DNA from: an uncultured Candidatus Saccharibacteria bacterium
Lineage (GTDB): Bacteria; Patescibacteriota; Minisyncoccia; UBA6257; WO2-44-18
DNA: 44,096 bases
Assembly (NCBI GenBank): GCA_964545345.1
Contig: CAZJFE010000003.1
Span: 1-44,096 of the forward strand
Direction: 5' to 3'
The position numbers were made by a program, and so were the translations under genes. Below the pieces are notes generated by a model. The model saw only the letters and a list, made by a program, of their open reading frames with translations, made no database searches and was not told the origin of the DNA. Below are positions 27,068 to 39,612 of this stretch, in pieces. The stretch's first letter is position 1, and the number at the start of each line of letters is the position of its first letter.

Positions 27068-28387
27068 ATGGAAAAGAAATTAAACATCCAGTACGTTCCG
27101 GTCGCCGATTTGCGGCCAGCACCGTACAATCCTCGAGTTCACACCAAGGAGCAGGCGGATCAGCTGAAAGAGAGCATTAAAAAATTCGGCGTTGTAGATC
27201 CAATTTTGGCTAACTCCGCCCCGAACCGGAAGAACATCGTAATTGGCGGTCATTTCCGGCTGGAGGTAGTTAAAGAAATGGGATTCAAAGAAGTGCCAGT
27301 CGTCTACATAAATGTTCCCGACATCGAAAAGGAAAAAGAAATTTGCATCAGACTAAATTTGAACACGGGCGAATTTGACTGGACTCTGCTTGCGGACTTC
27401 GATGAAATCTTTCTGAAAGACGTTGGCTTCTCCTCCGAAGATTTAGACGAAGTGTTTGGCGTGGACGACAATCCGGAAATCTTTGATCTCCAAAAGGAGT
27501 TAAAGAAACTCAACATAACCAAAATTCTTATTAAGAAGGGCGACGTTTGGAAATTGGGCGAGCATCGGCTTATGTGCGGAGACTCCACCATTGAATCTGA
27601 CATCTTGAAGCTGATGGGCGGCGAAAAGGCGTCGCTAGCGTTCACGGATCCCCCGTATATTTTGGATTATCTCAAAGGAAAGAAGAAAAATGGTAAGGCC
27701 ACTGAAGGGTTCGGGTACAAGCGTGATCGCAAATACTTGGAGACCGATTCAATTCCGGAGGACTTCACAGAAAAGTGGATGGCGAACATTGCCAAGATCG
27801 CCAAAGAGGATTTCCATATCATCGTATATGAAAACTGGAAAAATATCAGGACTATCTGGGGAGAGATGGAAAAGCATTGGAAGGTTCGCAATATGATTGT
27901 TTGGCATTTGCCAAACCGGATGCAGGGCTTCGCCGCGAAGTATAGGTTCTTCAATAAGCACGACATTGCCATGGTTGGATCTTCGGGCAAATCAGAACTC
28001 CGCCTGAATTCCGAGGGAGAGTTGTTGGATAACGAATACCGGACCGCGCTTTACGCCACCGCCGGGAAGCCGCACTGGGAGGGCTACGAGAAAGGAAAGA
28101 AAATCTGCCCGACTGATTTCATTGAGTATAAATCGGCAGACGCAAAAAGTTCCGGACAAGGAATTATTTTCGGAACCAAACCAGTCGAGATATTGATTCC
28201 GTATATGAAGGTTCTAACCAAGCGTGGAGATTTAGTAGTTGAGCCGTTCGGTGGTAGCGGATCAACTCTGATCACAGCTGAGAAAATGAAACGGCGTTGT
28301 TTCCTGATGGAAAAGTCGCCGGTCTACGCCGAAGTGATAAAGCATCGCTGGGAAAAGTTGACCGGCCTTAAAGCTAAAAAACTATGA
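27068..28387 (+). CDS. ParB-like N-terminal domain fused to an N6A/N4C DNA methyltransferase (phage type)
   Basis: LRPAPYNPR...IGGHFRL, HRLMCGDST, FTDPPY, TKPVE, EPFGGSGSTL. Confidence 0.92.
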   Translation: MEKKLNIQYVPVADLRPAPYNPRVHTKEQADQLKESIKKFGVVDPILANSAPNRKNIVIGGHFRLEVVKEMGFKEVPVVYINVPDIEKEKEICIRLNLNTGEFDWTLLADFDEIFLKDVGFSSEDLDEVFGVDDNPEIFDLQKELKKLNITKILIKKGDVWKLGEHRLMCGDSTIESDILKLMGGEKASLAFTDPPYILDYLKGKKKNGKATEGFGYKRDRKYLETDSIPEDFTEKWMANIAKIAKEDFHIIVYENWKNIRTIWGEMEKHWKVRNMIVWHLPNRMQGFAAKYRFFNKHDIAMVGSSGKSELRLNSEGELLDNEYRTALYATAGKPHWEGYEKGKKICPTDFIEYKSADAKSSGQGIIFGTKPVEILIPYMKVLTKRGDLVVEPFGGSGSTLITAEKMKRRCFLMEKSPVYAEVIKHRWEKLTGLKAKKL

Positions 28388-28803
28388 AGCGGGCAACTAA
28401 AACGTTGCTCCTAGAGCAGCTGAAGAAAACTCCAATAGTTCAGATTGCTTGTGAGAAAGCTGGCGTGGGCCGGGCAACATACTATCGCTGGCGTAAGGAA
28501 GATTTGGAATTCTCTAAGATGGCAGACGAAGCCATCTTAGAGGGCAGTTTTCTCGTTAATGACATGGCCGAAACCCAGCTTATGTCGGCAATTCGCGACA
28601 GGAATCTCACCGCCATAATCTTTTGGCTGAAACATCACCACTCTCAATACACTAACCGCCTGGAGATCAGCGGCCAGATTACTCATTTGCGCAAAGAACT
28701 CACCGAAGAAGAAAAGCAGATGGTCGAAAAAGCATTGCGATTGGCAATGCCGCAGGAAAATGAAGAACCGAATCAAAACAATGGAGAACCAACTACCCAA
28801 TAA
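28384..28803 (+). CDS. HTH protein, probable terminase small subunit
   Basis: ACEKAGVGRATYYRW HTH and AIIFWLK; directly upstream of terL. Confidence 0.75.
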   Translation: MKRATKTLLLEQLKKTPIVQIACEKAGVGRATYYRWRKEDLEFSKMADEAILEGSFLVNDMAETQLMSAIRDRNLTAIIFWLKHHHSQYTNRLEISGQITHLRKELTEEEKQMVEKALRLAMPQENEEPNQNNGEPTTQ

Positions 28804-30253
28804 ACCGGAAGAGATCATCCGAAGAATGATTGAGGATCCGAACTTCCGGCTAGAGCTGGTTCGGAACAGCCATTACTGGTTTATGCATTTTTATTTTCCT
28901 CATTATGTCACCTATCCGACCGCGGAGTTCCAGAAAGAAATATTCCAGCTTACGGAATCCCTAGATAGGACAGTGGTGATCACGGCTTTCCGTGGATCGG
29001 CAAAATCAACTATCTGCACCCTCTCGTATGCTATTTGGGCAATTCTCGGGAAGCAGGGAAAGAAGTTCGTAATCATGACTAGCCAAACTCAACGCCAAGC
29101 TCGTCAACATCTTATGAACCTGAAGCGTGAGTTGGAGAGTAACCCTTTCCTTTTGCGCGATTTAGGGCCATTTCATGAAGAACAAGATGAGTGGGGCGGC
29201 TATTCATTAGTTATTACGAAATACGGCGCAAGGATTACTGCCGCATCATCCGAGCAAAGCATTAGAGGATTGCGCCATATGAATTTCCGACCTGATTTAA
29301 TCATTGCCGACGATATCGAGGACCTACAATCAACGAGGACCAAAGAAGGGCGCGACAAGACTTACGATTGGCTATTGGGCGACGTAATCCCAGCTGGTGA
29401 TCAAAATACCAAGTTGATTATCGTAGGAAATCTTCTTCACGAGGATTCAGTAATGATGCGGCTGAAGTCGAGTATTGAGGAAGGGAAAATCGATGGAGTT
29501 TTCCGGGCGTACCCGATAATCGGTGAGGACAACAAAATACTTTGGCCGGGTAAATATCCAACGTTAGAAGCGGTAGAAAATGAAAAACGTAAAACCGGAA
29601 ACGAATCTGCTTGGAATCGGGAATACTTGTTACGGATCGTCAGCAATTCAGAACGAGTCGTTCATCCCGAATGGATTCAGCATTATAAAGAGCTGCCTGA
29701 TAAAGATCATCTGCGCTATACCGCAACAGGAGTTGATCTGGCTATATCGCTAAAAGAAACCGCTGACCGCACAGCAATGGTTTCGGCAAATATTTATGGC
29801 TATGGCGAGGATCTTAAAATCTACATCCTTCCCAATCCCATCAATGAGCGGCTGACATTTCCGCAGACGGTCGACCGGATAAAACTTTTGTCCAAGGTTC
29901 TTGGAGAGGGAGTGCAATCGCATATGTATATAGAAGAGGTTAGCTACCAGCGCTCGTTGATCGAACAACTTAACCGCGAGGGATACCACGCAGAAGGAGT
30001 TAAACTGCACGGCCAAGACAAACGCTCTCGGCTGGCTTTGACGACCGCCATGATTCAAAACGGTCAGATTGTTTTTCCCGAAAAAGGAGCCGAGGATTTA
30101 ATTCAACAGCTGACTGGTTTTGGGGTGGAAAGATTCGATGATCTTGCCGATGCCTTTTCCTTGTTAATACTAAAAACTACAACGGGAACTCATGTTGAGC
30201 CGAACATAACCTGGATAGATCTCGGGCCGCCGCGTGGGTGGCAAAGTTGGTAA
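28781..30253 (+). CDS. Phage terminase large subunit
   Basis: FRGSAKS Walker A, LIIADDIE Walker B, GVDLA and DDLADA nuclease motifs. Confidence 0.9.
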   Translation: MENQLPNKPEEIIRRMIEDPNFRLELVRNSHYWFMHFYFPHYVTYPTAEFQKEIFQLTESLDRTVVITAFRGSAKSTICTLSYAIWAILGKQGKKFVIMTSQTQRQARQHLMNLKRELESNPFLLRDLGPFHEEQDEWGGYSLVITKYGARITAASSEQSIRGLRHMNFRPDLIIADDIEDLQSTRTKEGRDKTYDWLLGDVIPAGDQNTKLIIVGNLLHEDSVMMRLKSSIEEGKIDGVFRAYPIIGEDNKILWPGKYPTLEAVENEKRKTGNESAWNREYLLRIVSNSERVVHPEWIQHYKELPDKDHLRYTATGVDLAISLKETADRTAMVSANIYGYGEDLKIYILPNPINERLTFPQTVDRIKLLSKVLGEGVQSHMYIEEVSYQRSLIEQLNREGYHAEGVKLHGQDKRSRLALTTAMIQNGQIVFPEKGAEDLIQQLTGFGVERFDDLADAFSLLILKTTTGTHVEPNITWIDLGPPRGWQSW

Positions 30254-32717: not shown

Positions 32718-34034
32718 ATGAAAGCAGCAACCCCAACGGGGCAGGCTTTGGATACTAAGCAGGTCCAGCCGCCAATCAAAATCAGATACTGCGTCTACGC
32801 TAGAAAAAGCACCGAATCCGAAGAACGGCAGGTGCTTTCCATTGATTCACAAACTAAAGAGATGCTTGAGCTCGCAGACAAAGAAGGCCTTGAGATCGTA
32901 GAGATCAAACGAGAATCGCACTCGGCTAAAGCTACCGGCCAGCGGCCGATCTTCAATGAACTTCTCAATGACATTCGCGCAGGGAAATTTAATGCCATTC
33001 TCACCTGGGCACCGGATCGCTTAAGCCGTAACGCCGGAGACTTAGGGGCGTTGGTAGATTTGATAGATCAGAAGCTGCTACTGGAAATCAGAACCTTCGG
33101 ACAAAAATTCACCAACTCACCGAATGAGAAGTTCCTTCTAATGATCTTGGGGTCGCAGGCCAAACTGGAAAACGACCAGAAAGGCGTGAACGTGAAGCGA
33201 GGACTAAGGTCGCGATGCGAGATGGGACTACGACCAGGAATCGCACCAACTGGATATATCAATGAAAAGCGAATGGACCGAAAGTGCCACGCCCTCGTTG
33301 ATCCAGAACGCGCTCCAGTGATAAAACAGATATTTGAAAAAGTGGCCAACGATAAGTGGAGCGGCAGAAGGGTCTATCACTGGTTGAGATACGAAATAAA
33401 CTTCTACACGAGAAGGAATAAGAACCTAACCTTAAGTAACATTTTTACTATTCTCCAAAACCCGTTTTATTACGGCGTCTTCGAGTATCCGGTAAAAAGC
33501 GACAATTGGTACACCGGTAAACATGAACCGCTTATTACCAAAGAATTATTCGATAAGGCCCGGGAACAGCTAAAGCGTGATCGCATCCAGCGAGAAAGCA
33601 AAGAATTCGCCTTCACTAAATTGATTACTTGCGGTCACTGCGGATCGGGCATAACAGCTGACGAAAAATTCAAACAACTAGCTGACGGAACCGTCGCCAG
33701 ATATGTCTACTACGGCTGCACCCGGAGCCGAGATCTGCATTGCAAGGGCGGATATATGAGAGAAGAAGATTTGATAGCTCAGCTTCTGTTGGTTATCGAT
33801 CAGATCGATATCAACGAGTTGGGAGTGCAGATTAAGTTTGAACAAGAGGTCGTGCGATATAACAAGTTCCGAAGAAACGTGCTCGGCGCGCAGGGAAAAT
33901 CTGAGGCCGAGGACATTAACTTAAAAACTTACGCCAAATATCTCCTCAGAGAAGGAAGCGTCATTGAGAAGCGCGAATTATTGTCCTCCTTCAAGAGCAA
34001 GCTAATTTTGAAGGACAAGCGGATCTCCCTCTAG
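32718..34034 (+). CDS. Large serine recombinase
   Basis: YARKS, DRLSRN, APTGY, HEPLIT, zinc ribbon CGHCG...YYGC...C. Confidence 0.95.
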   Translation: MKAATPTGQALDTKQVQPPIKIRYCVYARKSTESEERQVLSIDSQTKEMLELADKEGLEIVEIKRESHSAKATGQRPIFNELLNDIRAGKFNAILTWAPDRLSRNAGDLGALVDLIDQKLLLEIRTFGQKFTNSPNEKFLLMILGSQAKLENDQKGVNVKRGLRSRCEMGLRPGIAPTGYINEKRMDRKCHALVDPERAPVIKQIFEKVANDKWSGRRVYHWLRYEINFYTRRNKNLTLSNIFTILQNPFYYGVFEYPVKSDNWYTGKHEPLITKELFDKAREQLKRDRIQRESKEFAFTKLITCGHCGSGITADEKFKQLADGTVARYVYYGCTRSRDLHCKGGYMREEDLIAQLLLVIDQIDINELGVQIKFEQEVVRYNKFRRNVLGAQGKSEAEDINLKTYAKYLLREGSVIEKRELLSSFKSKLILKDKRISL

Positions 34035-35000
34035 CTCAACTTTTATTTTATTTGTATTCCCATGCCTCAACATTCCCAAATAGGACTGCCTTCGTGATTC
34101 GCTGGTATTATCTTTCATATTTCTGATCATTCTCCTCTTGGTGGCGCTTCGTAAAACCCGATGATCCGGAAAATGCACCCAGCCCAGAAAATCCACACCG
34201 GAGGCAATGGTCTTCAAGAAAATCTTGCTGGGGTGCAGATCTAGCTTCAAACGCTGCGTCAAAAACTCCCTCAACTTAGGGATTAGCTCTTCCAGCTCCC
34301 CTTTCTCTTGCGACAGAAAAACAAAGTCGTCAGCATAACGAGCGTAGTTTCTCACTTTCAATTTATGCTTCACGAACTGGTCAAACTCATTCATATAAAC
34401 GTTGGCGAATAACTGCGAGGTTAAATTTCCCAACGGCAACCCGATGCCGGGCGCGGAAGAAAAGCTCCCGATCACATTTCCCAACAACCATACGACTTTT
34501 TTGTCAGCTATATGCTCGTTCAGTAATTTCAACAATATTTCGTGGTCAATGCTAGCAAAAAATTTCCTAATATCGCACTTCAACACCCAGCAGGTCTTGG
34601 TGTGGTTCTTGCTAACCCGATAATTAACCGCCCTGAAACGATCCAGCGCCTTGTGCGTTCCCTTATTTGCCTGGCAAGAGAACGAATCAGCGATAAATCT
34701 CTTGGCAAAGTAAGGATAGAGGGCCAGGTGGATTGCGTGATGGAGTAACCGGTCGCGAACTCCCGCCTTGTGAATGATCCGAGGCTTCGGATCGGAGATA
34801 TTGAATCGATGATACCCGCCGTGTTTGTAGGTTCCGCTTGACAATTCCTGAAAAATCGCTAAAATATTAGCGAAGAACTTTGATTCGAAGGTCTGTACGT
34901 CTTTCTTGTTGGTCTTTCCTGGCAAAAACTGCCGCCATGCGGTTAGTAAACTTTCCACGGAGGTGATTTCTTGAAAACTATGGACGAATTGTTCAATCAT
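34002..35000 (-). CDS. DGR reverse transcriptase
   Basis: KPRII, RDRLLHHA, KCDIRKFFASIDH, GLPLGNLTSQLFAN, RYADDF, DFLG; adjacent TR/VR pair. Confidence 0.97.
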   Translation of the reverse strand: MIEQFVHSFQEITSVESLLTAWRQFLPGKTNKKDVQTFESKFFANILAIFQELSSGTYKHGGYHRFNISDPKPRIIHKAGVRDRLLHHAIHLALYPYFAKRFIADSFSCQANKGTHKALDRFRAVNYRVSKNHTKTCWVLKCDIRKFFASIDHEILLKLLNEHIADKKVVWLLGNVIGSFSSAPGIGLPLGNLTSQLFANVYMNEFDQFVKHKLKVRNYARYADDFVFLSQEKGELEELIPKLREFLTQRLKLDLHPSKIFLKTIASGVDFLGWVHFPDHRVLRSATKRRMIRNMKDNTSESRRQSYLGMLRHGNTNKIKVELEGDPLVLQN

Positions 35001-35354
35001 AAGTCAGTTAATATTACAGATCCGCCGATAGTTAGAAAAACTATCAGTTCTTATCGTATTCTCCACGAATTTCTAGATAAAATTCCTAAGACTTACCGCT
35101 ATACCCTCGGTTCGCGGATCGACAACACTTTCATCGCCTTTGGCGAAGAAATAGTTTCCGCCACCTATACAAAAGATCAGCAAAAAATAAGCCATCTAAA
35201 CCTAGCCAGCCAAAAACTGGACTCTTTGAATTTCCTATTAAGGATCAGCTGGGAGATACGGATCCTAGATACCAAGAAATATGCCGCCTTAGGCCAAGCA
35301 TTCGCCGAGATCGGCAGAATGCTTGGCGGTTGGCAGAAGCAAGTAATGAAGTAA
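34980..35354 (+). CDS. avd: Avd-like four-helix-bundle DGR accessory protein
   Basis: PKTYRYTLGSRI and EIGRMLGGW motifs; ~124 aa; ATG 34980. Confidence 0.9.
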   Translation: MDELFNHKSVNITDPPIVRKTISSYRILHEFLDKIPKTYRYTLGSRIDNTFIAFGEEIVSATYTKDQQKISHLNLASQKLDSLNFLLRISWEIRILDTKKYAALGQAFAEIGRMLGGWQKQVMK

Positions 35355-35359
35355 AGGGT

Positions 35360-35484
35360 TTGCGGACGGCGAGGAACCGGTAGTTCGCATTCCAGTCGTT
35401 GTCATACCAGTTCAGGTTCAGCTTGCGTTCGCTGTTGAAGTACAGGTACGGCACGTTGCGGTTACCGTTCGAGTCCCGCCAGGT
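35360..35484 (-). ncRNA. DGR template repeat (TR)
   Basis: Ungapped match to both VRs with differences almost only at TR adenines; 8 AAC and 1 AAT codons in the target frame. Confidence 0.96.
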
Positions 35485-35634
35485 ATGTGCAAAGCTCCTT
35501 CCGCGCCACCACCCCTCGAATACTCTTAGGGTTGAATCGAATTCTGTGTCTTGAACACAATAGCGCCTTGCACCAACTCCTAAACTTCATAATGACCGCT
35601 CGAAGCCGTAGCCGCGAGCTGTTTCGTCCCCTTT

Positions 35635-35640
35635 ATTATA
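35635..35640 (-). promoter_or_regulatory. Candidate -10 box for a TR(-RT) transcript
   Basis: Perfect TATAAT just past the target-1 terminator, ~150 nt upstream of TR; no clear -35. Confidence 0.45.
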
Positions 35641-35649
35641 CATTTTTTG

Positions 35650-35689
35650 AAAAAAGAAAAAGCCCCTGTTCTCTAAAGAGAACAGGGGC
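35650..35689 (-). terminator. Intrinsic terminator of DGR target 1
   Basis: GCCCCTGTTCTC-TTTA-GAGAACAGGGGC followed by TTTTTCTTTTTT. Confidence 0.85.
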
Positions 35690-35723
35690 GTAAGGACCAA
35701 GACCCAAGGGACTAAGGACCAGG

Positions 35724-35738
35724 CTCCGCTTCGCGGAG
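35724..35738 (-). other. GAA-loop hairpin immediately after the VR1 stop codon (candidate DGR homing hairpin)
   Basis: CTCCGC-GAA-GCGGAG. Confidence 0.65.
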
Positions 35739-36380
35739 TTAGGAGTTGCGGACGGCGAGGAACCGGCAGCCCGCATCCCAGCCGCCGTCATCCCAGCCCA
35801 GGTCCAGCCCGCGCTCGCCGCCGAAGCACAGGCACGGCACGTCGCGGCCACCGCCCGAGTCCCGCCATTCCTGTCCGAGAGCCACGACCCAGTCCTTGCC
35901 GTTCCAGTTCGCAGACATCCAGGTAAGGAGTTCGCGAAGGTTGGCAGGGCGGTAGCCTTCTTTCTTCATCTCGGCGACCATCTGATCGGAGGAAACGACC
36001 TTGTTGGGATAGAAGACCTTGAAGTCTGTCTTCACTCCGACGTCCGGGAAGTTCGCTTCGGTGATGTTCACGTTGACGTAGCCGAAGCTTCCAGACTGGA
36101 TCATCTTCTGCAGATCCTTGCCGCAGATCGCGCCGCCCTTCGGGTCCTCGATCCGAGCGAGCAGCTTGTCGATCGTGCCGCAGAGGCCTTCCGAGAACTT
36201 CTGAACTTCACTCTTGAAATCCACCAGAGCCGATTTCAGCTCCGGACTGGCCAGCCTCCCCTCCGCCACTTCCAGCTTCTTCTTGAGACCTTCGTTGATC
36301 TCCGTCAGGGCTGCGATCGTCGGCTGGGTCAGATCCTGGCTCACCTCAACGGATGCCTCGCTCTTTTCCGCGTCGGTCAT
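35739..36380 (-). CDS. DGR target protein 1 (helical N-terminus, C-terminal variable domain, CLec-like fold inferred)
   Basis: Ends in VR1 (...WDAGCRFLAVRNS); AAGGAG RBS before ATG 36380. Confidence 0.92.
   Translation of the reverse strand: MTDAEKSEASVEVSQDLTQPTIAALTEINEGLKKKLEVAEGRLASPELKSALVDFKSEVQKFSEGLCGTIDKLLARIEDPKGGAICGKDLQKMIQSGSFGYVNVNITEANFPDVGVKTDFKVFYPNKVVSSDQMVAEMKKEGYRPANLRELLTWMSANWNGKDWVVALGQEWRDSGGGRDVPCLCFGGERGLDLGWDDGGWDAGCRFLAVRNS
35746..35867 (-). repeat. DGR variable repeat VR1
   Basis: Versus TR: 23 A->G, 1 T->G, no gaps. Confidence 0.96.
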
Positions 36381-36425
36381 GGCTCTCTCCTTTGCTTGGG
36401 TTTTTGTTTGTACAGAACTGCTGTG

Positions 36426-36455
36426 AATATAGCACACTTTAGGCCTATTTGTCAA
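36426..36455 (-). promoter_or_regulatory. Sigma70-type promoter of target 1
   Basis: TTGACA-18-TATATT with TGn extension. Confidence 0.7.
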
Positions 36456-36481
36456 GCTAAAAACTTGCCGAATTCGGGAAC

Positions 36482-36516
36482 AAAAAATCCCCGCATTCTC
36501 GAAAGAATGCGGGGAT
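36482..36516 (-). terminator. Intrinsic terminator of DGR target 2
   Basis: ATCCCCGCATTCT-TTCG-AGAATGCGGGGAT followed by a T-tract. Confidence 0.85.
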
Positions 36517-36545
36517 AAGTACCAAGGGCCAAGAGCCCAAGGGTC

Positions 36546-37391
36546 TTAGGAGTTGCGGACGGCGAGGACCCGGCAGCCCGCATCCCAGCCGCCGCCACAC
36601 CAGCCCAGGCCCAGCCCGCGCGCGCCGCCGAAGCACAGGCACGGCACGCCGCGGCGACCGCCCGAGCCCCGCCAGGTCTGGCCGAGAGCAACGATCGGGT
36701 TCTCCTTCTGCCGGTTGGGATGATCCAATCCCAGCGAAAGGAGAGCGACGGGCTTGGCCGCCTTGAGCTTCAGGACCTTCATCATCTTCAGGATGTCCTT
36801 GGTGCTGGCGTCACGGCCCATGCTCACCAAGACGAGTTCCTGCTTCTTGGCAGAGCCCTTCTTGGCCGGGTAGTTCTTGCTGGTCACGGCCTCATTGGCC
36901 CAGGCCAGCTTGTTCGCCTTGACCAGCTCGTCGACCGAGAGATCATGACGCACACCCACTTCCAGCACTTCGGTCTTCACGTCCCGCATCGGGATCGCCG
37001 CGAGGGCCGCTCGGCAGAAGGACTTGAGGCCCTTCCACTTCTTGTCGCTGGGGGCGTTCTGGATGATATATTCCAGATCGTCCTCTTGGGCGAACTGCGT
37101 GATCATACGACCGAAGTTCTTCTTGAAGCTCTCGAAATCATGCAGTTTGGCCTGGATCTCCTTGGGAAGCTTATCGCTTTCCCAGAAGTTCTTCTCTTCC
37201 CCATGCTTGCCGCCTTTGCAAAGCGAGCCCCAGATGTTGTCGATGGCGTGATGGCCAAGGAAATCATTGTCCTTCAGACCCTCCAGCATCTCACGGCCGC
37301 GCTCGGAAAAGACTTCATCGTCGGTAAGGAAAAAGACTGTCTTCTTGCTACCCTTAGCCTCAACTTCTTTCCAGCTGACGAATTCGCACAT
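36546..37391 (-). CDS. DGR target protein 2
   Basis: Ends in VR2 (...WDAGCRVLAVRNS); AAGGAGG RBS before ATG 37391. Confidence 0.92.
   Translation of the reverse strand: MCEFVSWKEVEAKGSKKTVFFLTDDEVFSERGREMLEGLKDNDFLGHHAIDNIWGSLCKGGKHGEEKNFWESDKLPKEIQAKLHDFESFKKNFGRMITQFAQEDDLEYIIQNAPSDKKWKGLKSFCRAALAAIPMRDVKTEVLEVGVRHDLSVDELVKANKLAWANEAVTSKNYPAKKGSAKKQELVLVSMGRDASTKDILKMMKVLKLKAAKPVALLSLGLDHPNRQKENPIVALGQTWRGSGGRRGVPCLCFGGARGLGLGWCGGGWDAGCRVLAVRNS
36553..36677 (-). repeat. DGR variable repeat VR2
   Basis: Versus TR: 27 A->G, 2 A->C, 1 T->G, no gaps. Confidence 0.96.
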
Positions 37392-37458
37392 CGGAGCCCC
37401 TCCTTGTTTGGGTTTTTCAGTTTTTATCCATCGCATGATGGATTTGTGAACTGCCGTA

Positions 37459-37487
37459 AATATAGCAGAATTGAGCTAAAAAGTCAA
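37459..37487 (-). promoter_or_regulatory. Sigma70-type promoter of target 2
   Basis: TTGACT-17-TATATT with TGn extension. Confidence 0.7.
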
Positions 37488-37520
37488 GGGGATGAAATTC
37501 ACAAAATAATAACTACCCCC

Positions 37521-37556
37521 TACTAAAATCCCCGGGGTGCCCCGGGGATTTTAGTA
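37521..37556. terminator. Long inverted repeat, probable terminator
   Basis: Perfect 17-bp arms TACTAAAATCCCCGGGG/CCCCGGGGATTTTAGTA around a 2-nt centre, directly after a stop codon. Confidence 0.75.
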
Positions 37557-37763
37557 CTACTTTTTGCGCCGATTATAAGGCGGCTGGTTCGGAGGATCAA
37601 GGCTGATCCTCTTCTGAGAAGCCATATTGCTTACAGCAGCAGGAGTCCTGCCAAGCTTTAGGCTAATAACACGAGTGGGGGTATTTCCAAGAGCAAGATC
37701 GCGTAGCTTAGAAACCTCGCCAGGAGTCCACTGTTTACCAGAATTTCTATTATATTTTGCCAT
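37557..37763 (-). CDS. Small basic HTH/Myb-like protein
   Basis: KQWTPGEVSKL...ISLKLGRTPAAV pattern. Confidence 0.7.
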   Translation of the reverse strand: MAKYNRNSGKQWTPGEVSKLRDLALGNTPTRVISLKLGRTPAAVSNMASQKRISLDPPNQPPYNRRKK

Positions 37764-37794
37764 TTGAATTTTTTATTTACAATCTTTGACCGAG

Positions 37795-37822
37795 CGTTCC
37801 GGCAGCGGCCGCTGCCGGAACG
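37795..37822. repeat. Perfect 28-bp palindrome
   Basis: CGTTCCGGCAGCGG|CCGCTGCCGGAACG. Confidence 0.9.
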
Positions 37823-37836
37823 ACCCAGCTAGCAAG

Positions 37837-38115
37837 TTACAAGAACTTACGCTTGTGCAGCCAGTTCAGGCCATCACTCTCGTTGATCTTCCCATACCAA
37901 TCGCCTTGGAGCCGAAAAACGACTATTTCGTCATTGGCGTCTAAAGCGTAGGGACTGATCAAGTCATACACCTGCTTAGCAGATAATGGGGTCTCCACGA
38001 GCCAAGCAGAAGTAGTGTGATGCCAGTAAGTACCAGAGATACTCTCAATTGCCTTATAAAGGCGTGAATATTCCTGGCCCGGCCGATGCAGCGAGTAAGA
38101 AATGAGGTGAGTCAT
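37837..38115 (-). CDS. Small Cas2/VapD-like (ferredoxin-fold) protein
   Basis: LISYSL...GQEYSRLYKAI...SAWLV...DEIVV pattern. Confidence 0.55.
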   Translation of the reverse strand: MTHLISYSLHRPGQEYSRLYKAIESISGTYWHHTTSAWLVETPLSAKQVYDLISPYALDANDEIVVFRLQGDWYGKINESDGLNWLHKRKFL

Positions 38116-38386
38116 TTTGTTTACTTAACTAGATTGTCTTATGAGGGGCTTAACTGGTAGACTACAACCGTACAGTATCCGCCCTAAGAACCACTCGACT
38201 TTTAGCGAGCCCGCGAGCCTGCTAGTCCAGGCAATACGAGTCCCGCTGTGGCCTAGGCGGTGGGATAAGATTAAGCCCCCAAGAAACCGTCCCGATGGGG
38301 CGGTTTCTTGGTTGTTCAATCTCTTTGTGATTATATTTGTAGTCATAGTCAGCTTACTTTGCTTAAATAATAATAAAAATTTTTTA

Positions 38387-39070
38387 CTAGGTCAATGCCG
38401 GATATAGAAGATCTAGCCGGGCCTTTGCGGCGGCCGGGTTCACGTTAAAAACTTCGGCAAGAATCTCAATAGCTCGACTTCTCAGTGAAGGATCCAAGAC
38501 CTTAAGCTCAAACGGTCCCCCGGTTGAAAGTAGCCCGGCTATCGACTTTTCTACTAAATCGCTCGGGAGAAGCAAGCTTCCAATCGCTTGATTAGCCTGA
38601 TATTCCCACCATTTACCATCATAGCCAGTTCTTAGAACGTCAGAACTTTCATTCTCCCGACATAGAATCTTGGGCTCATCCAGACCGTCAACAAAAAGTG
38701 CCTTGGGTTTCTTACCAAGTACGAATAGATGGCCCTGGAAGAGGGCGTGTCCGGCCTCGTGAGCTAGCGTTGTGCGAATCCGGCGCTCTGAGCTTAAGGA
38801 TCCGTCTTCATCTAAAGATCGGGCTACAACCACTTCTTCTAATCCACGCTTACCGAAACGAGAAAACCCCAGCACCCCCTCCGGCATATCAATATATTGA
38901 TGGACAACGCCGAATCTTTTTTCTATAAAGCGATCGATGCGAACTGGGGCGGGCTTGTCGGGCAATAATCCAACCATCCGTAATTCATTGGAGCATGTTC
39001 TTTCAATCTCGTCCTGTTTATAAAAAGGCCGTGTTTGAAATGGACCAGATTTTGCTCTCAATGTATGCAT
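38387..39070 (-). CDS. ImmA/IrrE family metallopeptidase
   Basis: RIRTTLAHEAGH and EYQANQAIGSLLLP. Confidence 0.9.
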   Translation of the reverse strand: MHTLRAKSGPFQTRPFYKQDEIERTCSNELRMVGLLPDKPAPVRIDRFIEKRFGVVHQYIDMPEGVLGFSRFGKRGLEEVVVARSLDEDGSLSSERRIRTTLAHEAGHALFQGHLFVLGKKPKALFVDGLDEPKILCRENESSDVLRTGYDGKWWEYQANQAIGSLLLPSDLVEKSIAGLLSTGGPFELKVLDPSLRSRAIEILAEVFNVNPAAAKARLDLLYPALT

Positions 39071-39417
39071 TAATTTTTATTACTTTTCCTTGCCTTGTCG
39101 GCGAGCTTTATTAATTCCTCTGGGGTAACGCCCTCGTCTATCACTTTTCGGAAAGCAAGACCGTACCCAGGATTCTTTTTCGTCGCCTCCTTCATGCCTT
39201 CAATAGGTGGCCGATTATCATATTCCTTGAGCTTTTCTAAGCTAATCCCGAGTACGCGGGCCATGTCCGCCAATACCTCATCGGATGGATAGCGACGCCC
39301 GAGTTCGATATCGGAAAGAAAGGCTGCGGAGAGATCACCGAGCTTCTCGCCGAACTCGCGCAAGGACAAATCCTTACCGTCTCTCAGCTCACGTATAAAT
39401 TCTCCCAGAGTCTTCAT
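39070..39417 (-). CDS. XRE family HTH regulator
   Basis: LSLREFG...SAAFLSDIELGRRYPS; TAATG coupling to the ImmA gene. Confidence 0.92.
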   Translation of the reverse strand: MKTLGEFIRELRDGKDLSLREFGEKLGDLSAAFLSDIELGRRYPSDEVLADMARVLGISLEKLKEYDNRPPIEGMKEATKKNPGYGLAFRKVIDEGVTPEELIKLADKARKSNKN

Positions 39418-39525
39418 ACTAGTAAGCTTACAGCATTACAGATTAGGAGTCAATGCCCAATGTAGGTAATATGTTTATAACAAAACATAGAAGACTCTCG
39501 GTCTCTCGATAAAAAGTTTCAAGTG

Positions 39526-39612
39526 CGGAGGCGGAAGGATTCGAACCTTCGGAACCCTTTCGGGTTCAACGCATTAGCAGTGCGCTGCTTTCGGCCACTC
39601 AGCCACGCCTCC
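39526..39612 (-). tRNA. tRNA-Ser(GCT)
   Basis: GGAGGCG/CGCCTCC acceptor, GCGCA-CTGCTAA-TGCGT anticodon arm, long variable arm. Confidence 0.97.

What the first reader, a model, noticed from the sequence alone, without database searches (positions are those of the whole stretch)
35360..36677. Near-saturating, almost purely A->G mutagenesis in both VRs
Seen (hand alignment of the 30 TR adenines in 35380-35479): VR1 has 23 changed, all to G. VR2 has 29 changed, 27 to G and 2 to C. There is no A->T. The only two non-adenine differences are both T->G (35792, 36569). The Asn/Tyr-rich TR frame becomes Gly/Cys-rich (WYDNDWNANY -> WDDGGWDAGC and WCGGGWDAGC). Established: characterised DGRs change A to a mixture of bases and leave many adenines intact. 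Inference: an RT that preferentially inserts dC, giving a near-binary library; or a skewed dNTP pool; or selection for a Gly-rich state. Caveat: a consensus assembly of a hypervariable population would look like this if G is merely the most frequent base.
Basis: partly seen in the sequence, partly recalled or inferred. Interest (0 to 1): 0.85.

Follow-up and report, generated by a model that had tools for sequence, protein, structure and literature searches.

The report
DGR with almost all-G variable regions
A standard diversity-generating retroelement in a tiny groundwater bacterium has rewritten two genes so that nearly every template adenine became guanine, which is the extreme end of a bias already seen in related elements and not a new kind of system.

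Summary
There are 30 TR adenines in 35380-35479. VR1 has 23 changed, all to G. VR2 has 29 changed, 27 to G and 2 to C. There is no A>T, and the only two non-adenine changes are both T>G.

The locus is a complete DGR of the Patescibacteria type: RT, divergent Avd, TR, and two small targets with a C-type-lectin-like end.

A survey of 948 DGRs found about half of replaced adenines become G (PMC6642488). BPP-1 RT in E. coli mostly inserts dC (PMC12875486).

I compared 102 TR/VR pairs from RT relatives (56-67% identity). A>G made up 59% of changes, and 64% of adenines were changed. The window lies in the upper tail: beta-binomial P = 0.0026 for 50 G of 54. It has near peers, L105 (22 G of 24) and L130 (18 G of 20).

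The bias does not follow RT phylogeny or GC content. The same-genus orthologue has 12 G, 3 T and 1 C, with half its adenines intact.

A column-consensus artefact is unlikely. An independent k-mer contig reproduces both VRs with no differences, and VR1 is identical in a second sample. Per-read spectra could not be obtained.

Most likely the excess arises at cDNA synthesis as excess dC insertion, but selection is not excluded.

The parts
34002..35000 (-). DGR reverse transcriptase, 332 aa, with an intact YADD box and an LGNLTSQ motif
   Evidence: Pfam RVT_1, E = 1.8e-24. The best solved structure is 8ub7_A 'Reverse transcriptase', E = 5.9e-47. The motif was read in the translation. 562-582 relatives were confirmed in each of two collections.
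34980..35354 (+). Avd accessory protein, 124 aa, divergent from the RT, with overlapping gene starts
   Evidence: Pfam bAvd, E = 2e-16. NCBIfam DivGenRetAVD scores 81.2 bits against a cut-off of 80. In 37 of 101 related loci the longest ATG ORF in the TR-RT gap is at least 95 aa and on the opposite strand; in 40 more it is opposite but shorter, and in 24 it is on the same strand and shorter. None has a same-strand ORF of that size.
35360..35484 (-). Template repeat (TR), intergenic, with 32-33 adenines mostly in AAC codons. Its 3' end (35360-35381) is invariant and IMH-like.
   Evidence: Repeat family D1. In-register alignment. 27 of the 32 adenines are conserved in the sister species' TR.
35746..35867 (-). 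VR1, the 3' end of target 1. 23 of 32 TR adenines are changed, all to G, plus one T>G at 35792.
   Evidence: Identical in contigs of a second sample (records 12 and 13).
35739..36380 (-). Target gene 1, 213 aa: an N-terminal helical part and a C-terminal C-type-lectin-like domain that ends in VR1
   Evidence: ORF. AlphaFold2 on a 25-sequence alignment gives block-mean pLDDT 75-97 (mostly 84-97) over about residues 121-213. The top Foldseek PDB hits are almost all C-type lectin-like domains, E = 0.015-0.07, TM to target 0.4-0.54 for most. No Pfam, PHROG or NCBIfam hit.
36553..36677 (-). VR2, the 3' end of target 2. 29 of 33 TR adenines are changed (27 G, 2 C), plus one T>G at 36569.
36546..37391 (-). 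Target gene 2, 281 aa from the internal ATG (296 aa from 37436). Its N-terminal part is unrelated to target 1; its C-terminal VR domain is the same type. It has an orthologue next to the TR in the sister species.
   Evidence: ORF. blastn to G015 contig 14 gives 71% identity over 941 nt.
35662..35689 (-). Terminator-like hairpin after target 1, upstream of the TR
   Evidence: 12 pairs followed by a T run. This is a consensus match only.
36487..36516 (-). Terminator-like hairpin after target 2
   Evidence: 13 pairs followed by a T run. This is a consensus match only.

Best explanation
This is a complete, canonical diversity-generating retroelement of the Patescibacteria (CPR) type.

Inferred mechanism, by analogy with BPP-1: the minus-strand TR RNA is copied by RT-Avd into cDNA, and the cDNA has overwritten the 3' ends of two C-type-lectin-like genes.

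Shown: in both overwriting events dC was placed opposite almost every template adenine (50 G among 52 adenine changes), and also opposite two uracils. This turned Asn/Tyr/Lys codons into Gly/Cys/Asp/Arg codons.

The two VRs are real, dominant haplotypes. The pattern is the extreme upper end of a dC-insertion preference shared by this whole RT clade and by BPP-1 RT in cells.

My reading is that the excess over the clade average arose at the cDNA-synthesis step. That means an element-specific or event-specific excess of dC misinsertion, with correct dT insertion nearly lost. I do not attribute it to assembly, and I do not attribute it mainly to protein-level selection. Whether the cause is the RT-Avd-template complex itself or the nucleotide supply at the time is not resolved.
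For: DGR identity:
- RVT_1 and bAvd hits.
- DivGenRetAVD above its cut-off.
- bRT structure 8ub7 is the best PDB match, E = 5.9e-47.
- 52 of 54 TR/VR differences lie at TR adenines.
- Only these three copies of the repeat exist in the 857-kb genome.

Real haplotypes:
- A 4,990-nt Logan contig of run X1 covers 34564-39000 with 0 differences.
- Run X2 contigs cover 35651-35862 and 35835-36230 with 0 differences.

Clade-wide dC preference:
- 102 unique TR/VR pairs from 100 of 160 related loci give G 1089, T 436, C 332, with 63.5% of adenines changed.
- The commonest non-adenine error is also T>G, 15 of 39.
- Literature: about half of replaced adenines become G in 948 DGRs (PMC6642488).
- bRT cDNA in E. 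coli is dominated by C misincorporation.
- bRT can make cDNA without TTP, and then it must misincorporate at every adenine (PMC6182149).

The window is an outlier with peers:
- Beta-binomial P(>= 50 of 54 G) = 0.0026, and P(no T in 54) = 0.0028.
- G per adenine is 0.82 (VR2, highest of 104) and 0.72 (VR1, fourth).
- Peers are L105 at 0.76 and L130 at 0.72.

Mutational rather than selective origin:
- Both non-adenine changes are again dC insertions (T>G). The clade rate predicts about 0.37 such changes; Poisson P = 0.055.
- GAA>GAG in VR1 is synonymous.
- Two proteins with unrelated N-terminal parts show the same bias.
- Three to four Tyr>Cys changes are forced by A>G.

The spectrum looks like a property of the element:
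- VRs that share one TR agree with each other, while groups differ. G fractions are 0.37/0.50/0.33, 0.76/0.71, 0.63/0.74/0.50 and 0.64/0.62.
- Between-group chi2 = 10.6, df 3, p = 0.014, with the window left out.
Against: - There is no sign that the RT itself differs where it matters. The residues aligned to bRT R74 and I181 are R and L in all 101 RTs.
- None of 520 residue-association tests passes Bonferroni correction (best p = 6.7e-4).
- Nearest-neighbour RTs do not share G fraction (r = 0.03, permutation p = 0.35).
- The same-genus orthologue has 12 G, 3 T, 1 C. Its G share does not differ significantly from the window's (Fisher p = 0.07). Its share of changed adenines does (16 of 32 against 52 of 65, p = 0.004).
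- The genome encodes thymidylate synthase ThyA, as its congeners do, so gene content does not suggest dTTP shortage.
- Agreement between VRs that share a TR is equally expected if selection on the shared target scaffold sets the outcome.
- A single snapshot of two VRs cannot separate mutation from selection.
- No read-level spectrum was obtained.
The fitted clade distribution predicts about 1 element in 1000 with a true G share above 0.9.
Confidence: 0.5

Rival explanations
1. There is no locus-specific mechanism. The element has the ordinary clade spectrum (about 59% G). The two VRs are chance or selection extremes, in which G-encoded residues (Gly, Asp, Cys, Arg) were favoured in both lectin-like pockets, perhaps as a non-binding or reset surface.
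For: - The distribution of G share among 102 relatives is continuous from 0.15 to 1.0. Near peers are L105 (22 G of 24), L130 (18 of 20), L047 (14 of 15) and L157 (14 of 14).
- There is no RT phylogenetic signal.
- The sister orthologue is ordinary.
- The locus was selected for being extreme.
- Both VRs sit in the same scaffold, so they could share selection.
Against: - Beta-binomial P = 0.0026 for the two VRs together.
- The context-matched expectation is 12 G per VR against 23 and 27 observed.
- The extra T>G changes and the synonymous GAA>GAG are not explained by selection for Gly.
- 80% of adenines are changed against 64% in the clade.
Confidence: 0.3
2. The bias arises after cDNA synthesis. 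During repeated homing, cDNA-target heteroduplexes are repaired towards G:C (for example G.T mismatches fixed to G:C). G then becomes an absorbing state and VRs ratchet towards all-G.
For: - It would explain near-saturation and near-purity together.
- Target genes in this clade are about 14 GC points richer than their RT genes.
- A cDNA-annealing route at the replication fork is proposed for BPP-1 (passages).
Against: - Across 102 pairs, G share does not rise with the fraction of adenines changed (Spearman 0.06, p = 0.54). A general ratchet would predict a rise.
- The GC excess of targets lowers both A and T over the whole gene, not only where the TR is homologous.
- No repair gene was examined.
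Confidence: 0.08
3. This is an assembly artefact. A hypervariable population was collapsed to the most frequent base per column.
For: - The window comes from a metagenome-assembled genome.
- Depth is only about 17x.
Against: - An independent contig of run X1 reproduces 34564-39000, both VRs included, with 0 differences.
- VR1 is identical in run X2.
- Such contigs follow k-mer paths present in reads and are not column votes (how Logan contigs are built is recalled, not tested).
- A truly hypervariable VR at 17x should break the contig.
- X1 may be the source sample and X2 is from the same study, so independence is limited.
Confidence: 0.04
4. The direction or the chemistry is different. Either the TR gained adenines by G>A change while the VRs kept ancestral G, or TR RNA adenosines are deaminated to inosine before reverse transcription.
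For: A pure A/G difference is also the signature of a deamination process.
Against: - 27 of 32 TR adenines are A in the sister species' TR.
- Nearly all TR adenines differ, but only 24-27 of 56-59 VR guanines do.
- None of the 18 neighbouring ORFs scanned matched a deaminase family.
- Two A>C and two T>G changes do not fit deamination.
Confidence: 0.03

Closest known systems
Bordetella phage BPP-1 DGR (brt-avd-TR-mtd), the prototype
   Same: - The RT is the best structural-database match (8ub7, E = 5.9e-47).
- It also has an Avd partner and adenine-specific TR-to-VR transfer into the C-terminal lectin-fold end of the target.
- dC is the preferred misinsertion in cells (passages of 10.1101/2025.08.18.670894 and PMC12875486).
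- AG contexts give almost only A>G, both in bRT (DGRec preprint) and in this clade (85-100%).
   Different: - Here avd is divergent and lies between the TR and the RT.
- There are two small cellular targets and no tail fibre.
- About 80% of adenines are changed and 96% of changes are to G. For bRT the reported figures are about 30% (E. coli) to 50% (in vitro and in phage), with A, C and G all inserted.
- At NAC contexts this clade shows at most 4% A>C, whereas bRT is reported to insert G there often.
Patescibacteria (CPR) DGRs. 'DGR clade 2' is the label in Roux et al. 2021 (PMC8144416); placement in their tree was not tested here.
   Same: - RT identity is 56-68% to hundreds of loci, most of them titled as Patescibacteria MAGs, and 80-94% to the same-genus genome G015.
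- The layout is the same: VR, TR, opposite-strand avd, RT.
- Targets are about 200 aa with the same C-terminal domain.
- A>G is the commonest change.
   Different: - It has the highest G-per-adenine of 104 VRs examined.
- It has no A>T at all (4 of 102 relatives also have none).
- It has two targets, where most related loci showed one within the flank.
Near-peer elements L105 (MAG titled Candidatus Staskawiczbacteria) and L130 (MAG titled uncultured Candidatus Saccharibacteria)
   Same: They show almost pure A>G with high saturation: 22 G, 1 T, 1 C of 29 adenines in L105, and 18 G, 2 T of 25 adenines in L130. They give the same Gly/Cys-rich outcome, for example WNWNYNW > WGWGCGW.
   Different: - Their RTs are only 61-64% identical to the window's and do not cluster with it.
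- Each shows one VR.
- The L130 contig also carries a second, unrelated DGR with the opposite spectrum (4 G, 10 T, 3 C).

Membership tests
Diversity-generating retroelement (DGR) | Reverse transcriptase of the DGR type | tested here: met
   RVT_1, E = 1.8e-24. The best PDB match is bRT entry 8ub7, E = 5.9e-47 over residues 9-297. The LGNLTSQ motif aligns to bRT IGSLTSQ. That [ILV]GxxxSQ is the DGR signature is recalled, not tested.
Diversity-generating retroelement (DGR) | Avd accessory four-helix-bundle protein next to the RT | tested here: met
   Pfam bAvd scores 60.8 bits against a cut-off of 40. NCBIfam DivGenRetAVD scores 81.2 bits against a cut-off of 80.
Diversity-generating retroelement (DGR) | TR/VR repeat whose mismatches lie at template adenines | tested here: met
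   52 of 54 differences within the repeat lie at TR adenines. The other two are T>G.
Diversity-generating retroelement (DGR) | VR at the 3' end of a target ORF, within a C-type-lectin fold | tested here: met
   Both VRs end 7 nt before the stop codon. The AlphaFold2 model of target 1 has a confident C-terminal domain. Its best Foldseek PDB matches are almost all C-type lectin-like domains, but they are weak: E = 0.015-0.07, none at or below 0.001.
Diversity-generating retroelement (DGR) | Invariant IMH-like 3' end shared by VR and TR, followed by a TR/VR-specific difference | tested here: met
   A 22-nt GC-rich stretch is shared by the TR and both VRs, with one T>G in VR2. After it the VRs read CTCC and the TR reads ACCC. 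Its function was not testable. The hairpin after VR1 (6 bp) is no better than shuffles, z = -1.3.
Diversity-generating retroelement (DGR) | Ongoing diversification (VR variation within or between populations) | tested here: inconclusive
   VR1 is identical in two samples of one study. VR1 and VR2 differ from each other at 8 of 33 TR-adenine columns (one at the boundary of VR1's homology). Related elements with identical TRs carry different VRs (L032/L035/L112, L049/L050). No raw reads were available.
Patescibacteria DGR clade | RT groups with CPR DGR RTs and shares their locus layout | tested here: met
   Most of the best 80 genome hits carry Patescibacteria-type MAG titles. 12 of 21 genomes of the same family, the window's own included, hold a match. 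The VR-TR-RT spacing is like that of 100 relatives. The published clade tree was not rebuilt.

The most novel reading that the evidence does not exclude
This element's RT-Avd-template complex has shifted from promiscuity at adenine to near-obligatory dC insertion, at more than 80% of adenines and more than 90% of errors. It would then write an essentially binary A/G library (Asn, Ser, Asp or Gly per AAC codon). That would make it a natural near-deterministic A>G writer. The same trait would have arisen sporadically in a few other CPR DGRs (L105, L130).
Probability: 0.2. Interest if true: 0.55.

Novelty: new member of a known kind. Interest (0 to 1): 0.3.

Why it matters
If the extreme A>G spectrum is a property of this RT-Avd-template complex, there are two consequences. 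It would be a natural variant with a different error profile from BPP-1 RT, which is useful for understanding what sets base choice opposite adenine and for programmable mutagenesis tools. It would also mean that some natural DGR libraries are far smaller than the usual 20-amino-acid estimate.

As the evidence stands, the finding mostly recalibrates the baseline. In this large CPR clade A>G is the majority outcome and about two thirds of adenines are changed, so near-all-G VRs are the tail of a continuum. The comparative table of 102 TR/VR pairs, with its context dependence, is the more general result.

Tried and rejected
- **Read-level spectra.** The three runs found are kept only as contigs, so per-read base counts at TR-adenine columns could not be made. 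Run X2 cover over the TR and VR2, and run X3 cover overall, were too thin or absent to use. The variant table was truncated ('50 more are not shown') and its listed rows lie in the recombinase and RT genes, at least partly from other organisms' homologues at 80% likeness.\n- **Other copies of this element.** The VR pattern with adenines left open found only the three known copies in the own genome and none in viral contigs. The closest RT is 67% identical in the metagenome and genome collections and at most 61% in viral contigs, where only 10 loci were found.\n- **Selection-free sites.** Only 26 fourfold-degenerate third-position adenines exist in the 74 pairs with a unique reading frame. 14 of them are the fixed CGA/CGC boundary difference, so the raw spectrum could not be read.\n- **RT residue association.** 520 tests gave a best p of 6.7e-4, and none passes multiple-test correction. 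Eight window-specific departures at conserved columns were found (S17, Q24, F42, I49, L92, A99, Q110, S285), with no link to the spectrum.\n- **Composition.** G share does not correlate with locus, RT or target GC.\n- **Nucleotide supply.** ThyA is present in G000 and in three of four congeners. ThyX was not found in G000, which is 85.6% complete. This gives no discriminating signal.\n- **Target annotation.** Pfam, PHROGs and NCBIfam gave nothing for either target, and Pfam gave nothing meaningful for the 25 aligned targets.\n- **Homing hairpins.** Hairpins after the VRs are no better than shuffles.\n- **Earlier notes of this scan.** Nothing near this place, and nothing on base spectra.
Full report
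**What is there**

Window 34002-37391 holds a complete diversity-generating retroelement.
- The RT gene lies on the minus strand at 34002-35000. It hits Pfam RVT_1 with E = 1.8e-24. Its best solved-structure match is the Bordetella phage RT entry 8ub7, E = 5.9e-47.
- Diverging from it, with overlapping starts, is an Avd gene at 34980-35354 (+). It hits Pfam bAvd and scores 81.2 bits against the 80-bit cut-off of NCBIfam DivGenRetAVD.
- A 125-nt template repeat (TR, 35360-35484) lies on the minus strand just beyond avd.
- Two minus-strand genes end in copies of it: target 1 (35739-36380, VR1 at 35746-35867) and target 2 (36546-37391, VR2 at 36553-36677).
- The own genome is 857 kb in 77 contigs and 85.6% complete. 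It holds only these three copies of the repeat.
- Runs that hold the stretch are labelled groundwater metagenome.
- Most of the best RT relatives are titled as Patescibacteria MAGs.

The targets match no Pfam, PHROG or NCBIfam family. They belong to a family of roughly 160-290-aa proteins (one of 646 aa) that sit next to related RTs. An AlphaFold2 model of target 1, built on a 25-sequence alignment, has a confident C-terminal domain. Its best PDB matches are almost all C-type lectin-like domains, though weakly (E = 0.015-0.07).

**The observation**

- There are 30 TR adenines in 35380-35479.
- VR1 has 23 changed, all to G.
- VR2 has 29 changed, 27 to G and 2 to C.
- There is no A>T.
- The only non-adenine differences are T>G at 35792 and at 36569.

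The direction is from TR to VR. 27 of the 32 TR adenines are also A in the TR of a same-genus genome. Nearly all TR adenines differ from the VRs, whereas only 24-27 of the 56-59 VR guanines lie over a TR adenine.

**Is it an assembly consensus?**

Raw reads were not available; the three runs found are held as contigs only.
- An independent contig of run X1 (4,990 nt, depth 17) covers 34564-39000, both VRs included, with no difference. X1 may be the source sample.
- In a second sample of the same study (X2), two contigs cover 35651-35862 and 35835-36230 with no difference, so VR1 is the same there.
- Such contigs follow k-mer paths present in reads and do not vote column by column (how they are built is recalled, not tested).
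- A truly hypervariable region at 17x would be expected to break the contig.

I therefore treat both VRs as dominant real haplotypes. Minor variants cannot be excluded.

**What the baseline really is**

The papers I read in passages qualify this.
- A survey of 948 non-redundant DGRs reports that about half of replaced adenines become guanine (PMC6642488).
- cDNA made by BPP-1 RT in E. coli is dominated by C misincorporation, giving 'primarily A-to-G' in the target (10.1101/2025.08.18.670894, and its published form PMC12875486).
- A template G next to the adenine forces A>G, and one error raises the error rate at the next position (10.1101/2025.03.24.644984).
- In vitro the enzyme can make cDNA without TTP, and it then misincorporates at every adenine (PMC6182149).

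**Relatives**

I fetched the 80 best loci each from metagenome and genome contigs using the RT protein (56-67% identity). I then searched each locus for repeat pairs.
- The criteria were at least 50 nt, at least 7 mismatches, and at least 75% of mismatches at one base. The filter does not look at which base replaces the adenine.
- 100 of the 160 loci gave 102 unique pairs. The other loci were too short or had no pair within the flank.
- Pooled, the 1,857 adenine changes are 58.6% G, 23.5% T and 17.9% C.
- 63.5% of adenines between the first and last changed one are changed.
- Median G share is 0.565, with a 5-95% range of 0.33-0.89.
- The spread exceeds binomial expectation (chi2 = 205, df 101, p = 4e-9).

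Under a beta-binomial fit, 50 G of 54 has P = 0.0026, and no T in 54 has P = 0.0028. These BLAST-based counts for the window include one fixed boundary A>C per VR.

G per adenine is 0.82 for VR2, the highest of 104 VRs. It is 0.72 for VR1, the fourth highest. Near peers exist:
- L105: 22 G, 1 T, 1 C; 24 of 29 adenines changed.
- L130: 18 G, 2 T; 20 of 25 adenines changed.
- L047: 14 G, 1 C.
- L157: 14 G of 14.

L105 and L130 show the same Gly/Cys-rich outcome as the window.

A null that uses the clade's spectra for each trinucleotide context expects about 12 G per VR, against 23 and 27 observed.

**What the bias does not follow**

- G share does not correlate with the GC content of the locus, the RT gene or the target (|rho| at most 0.16, n = 96).
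- It does not correlate with the fraction of adenines changed (rho = 0.06).
- It does not follow RT relatedness. The nearest-neighbour correlation is 0.03, permutation p = 0.35, n = 101. RTs 81-84% identical differ as much as 0.93 against 0.37.
- The residues aligned to bRT R74 and I181 are R and L in all 101 RTs. That these two positions affect fidelity is recalled, not read here.
- No residue is associated with G share after correction for 520 tests.

The closest relative is in same-genus genome G015. Its RT is 94% identical over residues 1-80 and 80% identical over residues 93-328, on two contig ends. It carries an orthologue of target 2.
- Its changes are 12 G, 3 T and 1 C.
- 16 of its 32 adenines are intact.
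- Its G share does not differ significantly from the window's (Fisher p = 0.07).
- Its share of changed adenines does differ (p = 0.004).

Two elements in one host can differ. The L130 contig carries a second, unrelated DGR with 4 G, 10 T and 3 C. This argues against a purely host-wide nucleotide-pool cause in that case.

The own genome encodes ThyA, as do three of its four congeners.

**What speaks for a mutational origin**

- Both non-adenine changes are T>G, which is again dC inserted, this time opposite U. T>G is also the clade's commonest non-adenine change (15 of 39; 0.89% of TR thymines). The window has 2 where about 0.37 are expected (P = 0.055).
- The one third-position adenine inside the tract became G in both VRs. 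In VR1 that change is synonymous, GAA>GAG.
- Two proteins with unrelated N-terminal parts show the same bias.
- VRs that share one TR agree with each other while groups differ (chi2 = 10.6, df 3, p = 0.014 without the window). Shared selection on one scaffold would give the same agreement, so this point is not decisive.

**Verdict**

The locus is an ordinary, complete CPR-type DGR. Its two VRs are the most G-saturated of 104 examined. That is a real but not isolated extreme of a known and clade-wide preference for inserting dC opposite adenine.

I rank the explanations as follows:
1. The excess arose at cDNA synthesis, through the element itself or the nucleotide supply (0.5).
2. It is ordinary mutagenesis plus selection or chance (0.3).
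3. It is a repair ratchet towards G (0.08).
4. It is an assembly artefact (0.04).
5. The direction is reversed, or the TR RNA is edited (0.03).

The near-binary-library idea remains possible (0.2), but it is not supported by any RT feature or by the nearest relative. Raw-read spectra and a reconstituted cDNA assay would settle it.

Noticed in passing
window 27068-30253, 32718-34034, 38387-39612: Phage-like genes flank the DGR. They are a ParB-methyltransferase fusion (27068-28387), terminase small and large subunits (28384-28803, 28760-30253), and a large serine recombinase (32718-34034) whose 3' end overlaps the 3' end of the RT gene. There is also an HTH repressor-like gene (39070-39417) beside a weak M78/IrrE-like gene (38387-39070), and tRNA-Ser at 39525-39612. 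The DGR may sit in a prophage remnant or an integrated element. No capsid or portal genes were identified.
   Followed up: partly
related loci L004-L163 and window 35739-37391: Across the clade, the 600 nt of target gene upstream of the VR are much richer in GC than the RT gene of the same locus. The medians are 55% against 38%, and the median difference is +14 points. In the window the difference is +10 and +12 points. Both A and T are lowered, so this is not adenine avoidance. No explanation was found.
   Followed up: partly
102 TR/VR pairs of related loci: The clade-wide spectrum depends strongly on context. The first A of AA is changed in about 80% of cases, with C at 24-30%. The A before C (AAC, GAC, TAC) is changed in 55-61% of cases, with C at 4% or less. 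A before G gives G in 85-100% of changes. The low A>C at NAC contexts is the opposite of the high G misincorporation reported for BPP-1 RT there. Selection and mutation are not separated here.
   Followed up: partly
L032, L035, L112; L049, L050; L057, L063, L119: Loci from different records share identical or near-identical TRs (a shared 60-mer) but carry different VRs. This is direct evidence that elements of this clade diversify in nature.
   Followed up: partly
L130 (contig titled uncultured Candidatus Saccharibacteria MAG): One contig holds two different DGRs with opposite spectra. The clade relative has 18 G and 2 T. A second element has an RT only 29% identical to the window's and a target ending in VRCVR. 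Its changes are 4 G, 10 T and 3 C.
   Followed up: no
window 34002-35000 (RT residues 17, 24, 42, 49, 92, 99, 110, 285): The RT departs from the residue shared by at least 90% of 100 relatives at eight columns: S17, Q24, F42, I49, L92, A99, Q110 and S285. Five of these are unique to it. Q110 aligns to an arginine of bRT. No link to the spectrum could be shown.
   Followed up: partly
window 34980-35354 and 101 related loci: avd lies on the strand opposite to the TR and RT, between them. An RNA running from the TR into the RT gene would therefore be antisense to avd. In 37 of 101 related loci the longest ATG ORF in the TR-RT gap is at least 95 aa and on the opposite strand. No locus has a same-strand ORF of that size.
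   Followed up: partly
G015 contig 14 (L176 6440-8341): The sister species has only the target 2 orthologue directly upstream of its TR. No counterpart of target 1 aligned there, so target 1 may be a recent addition in the window's lineage.
   Followed up: no
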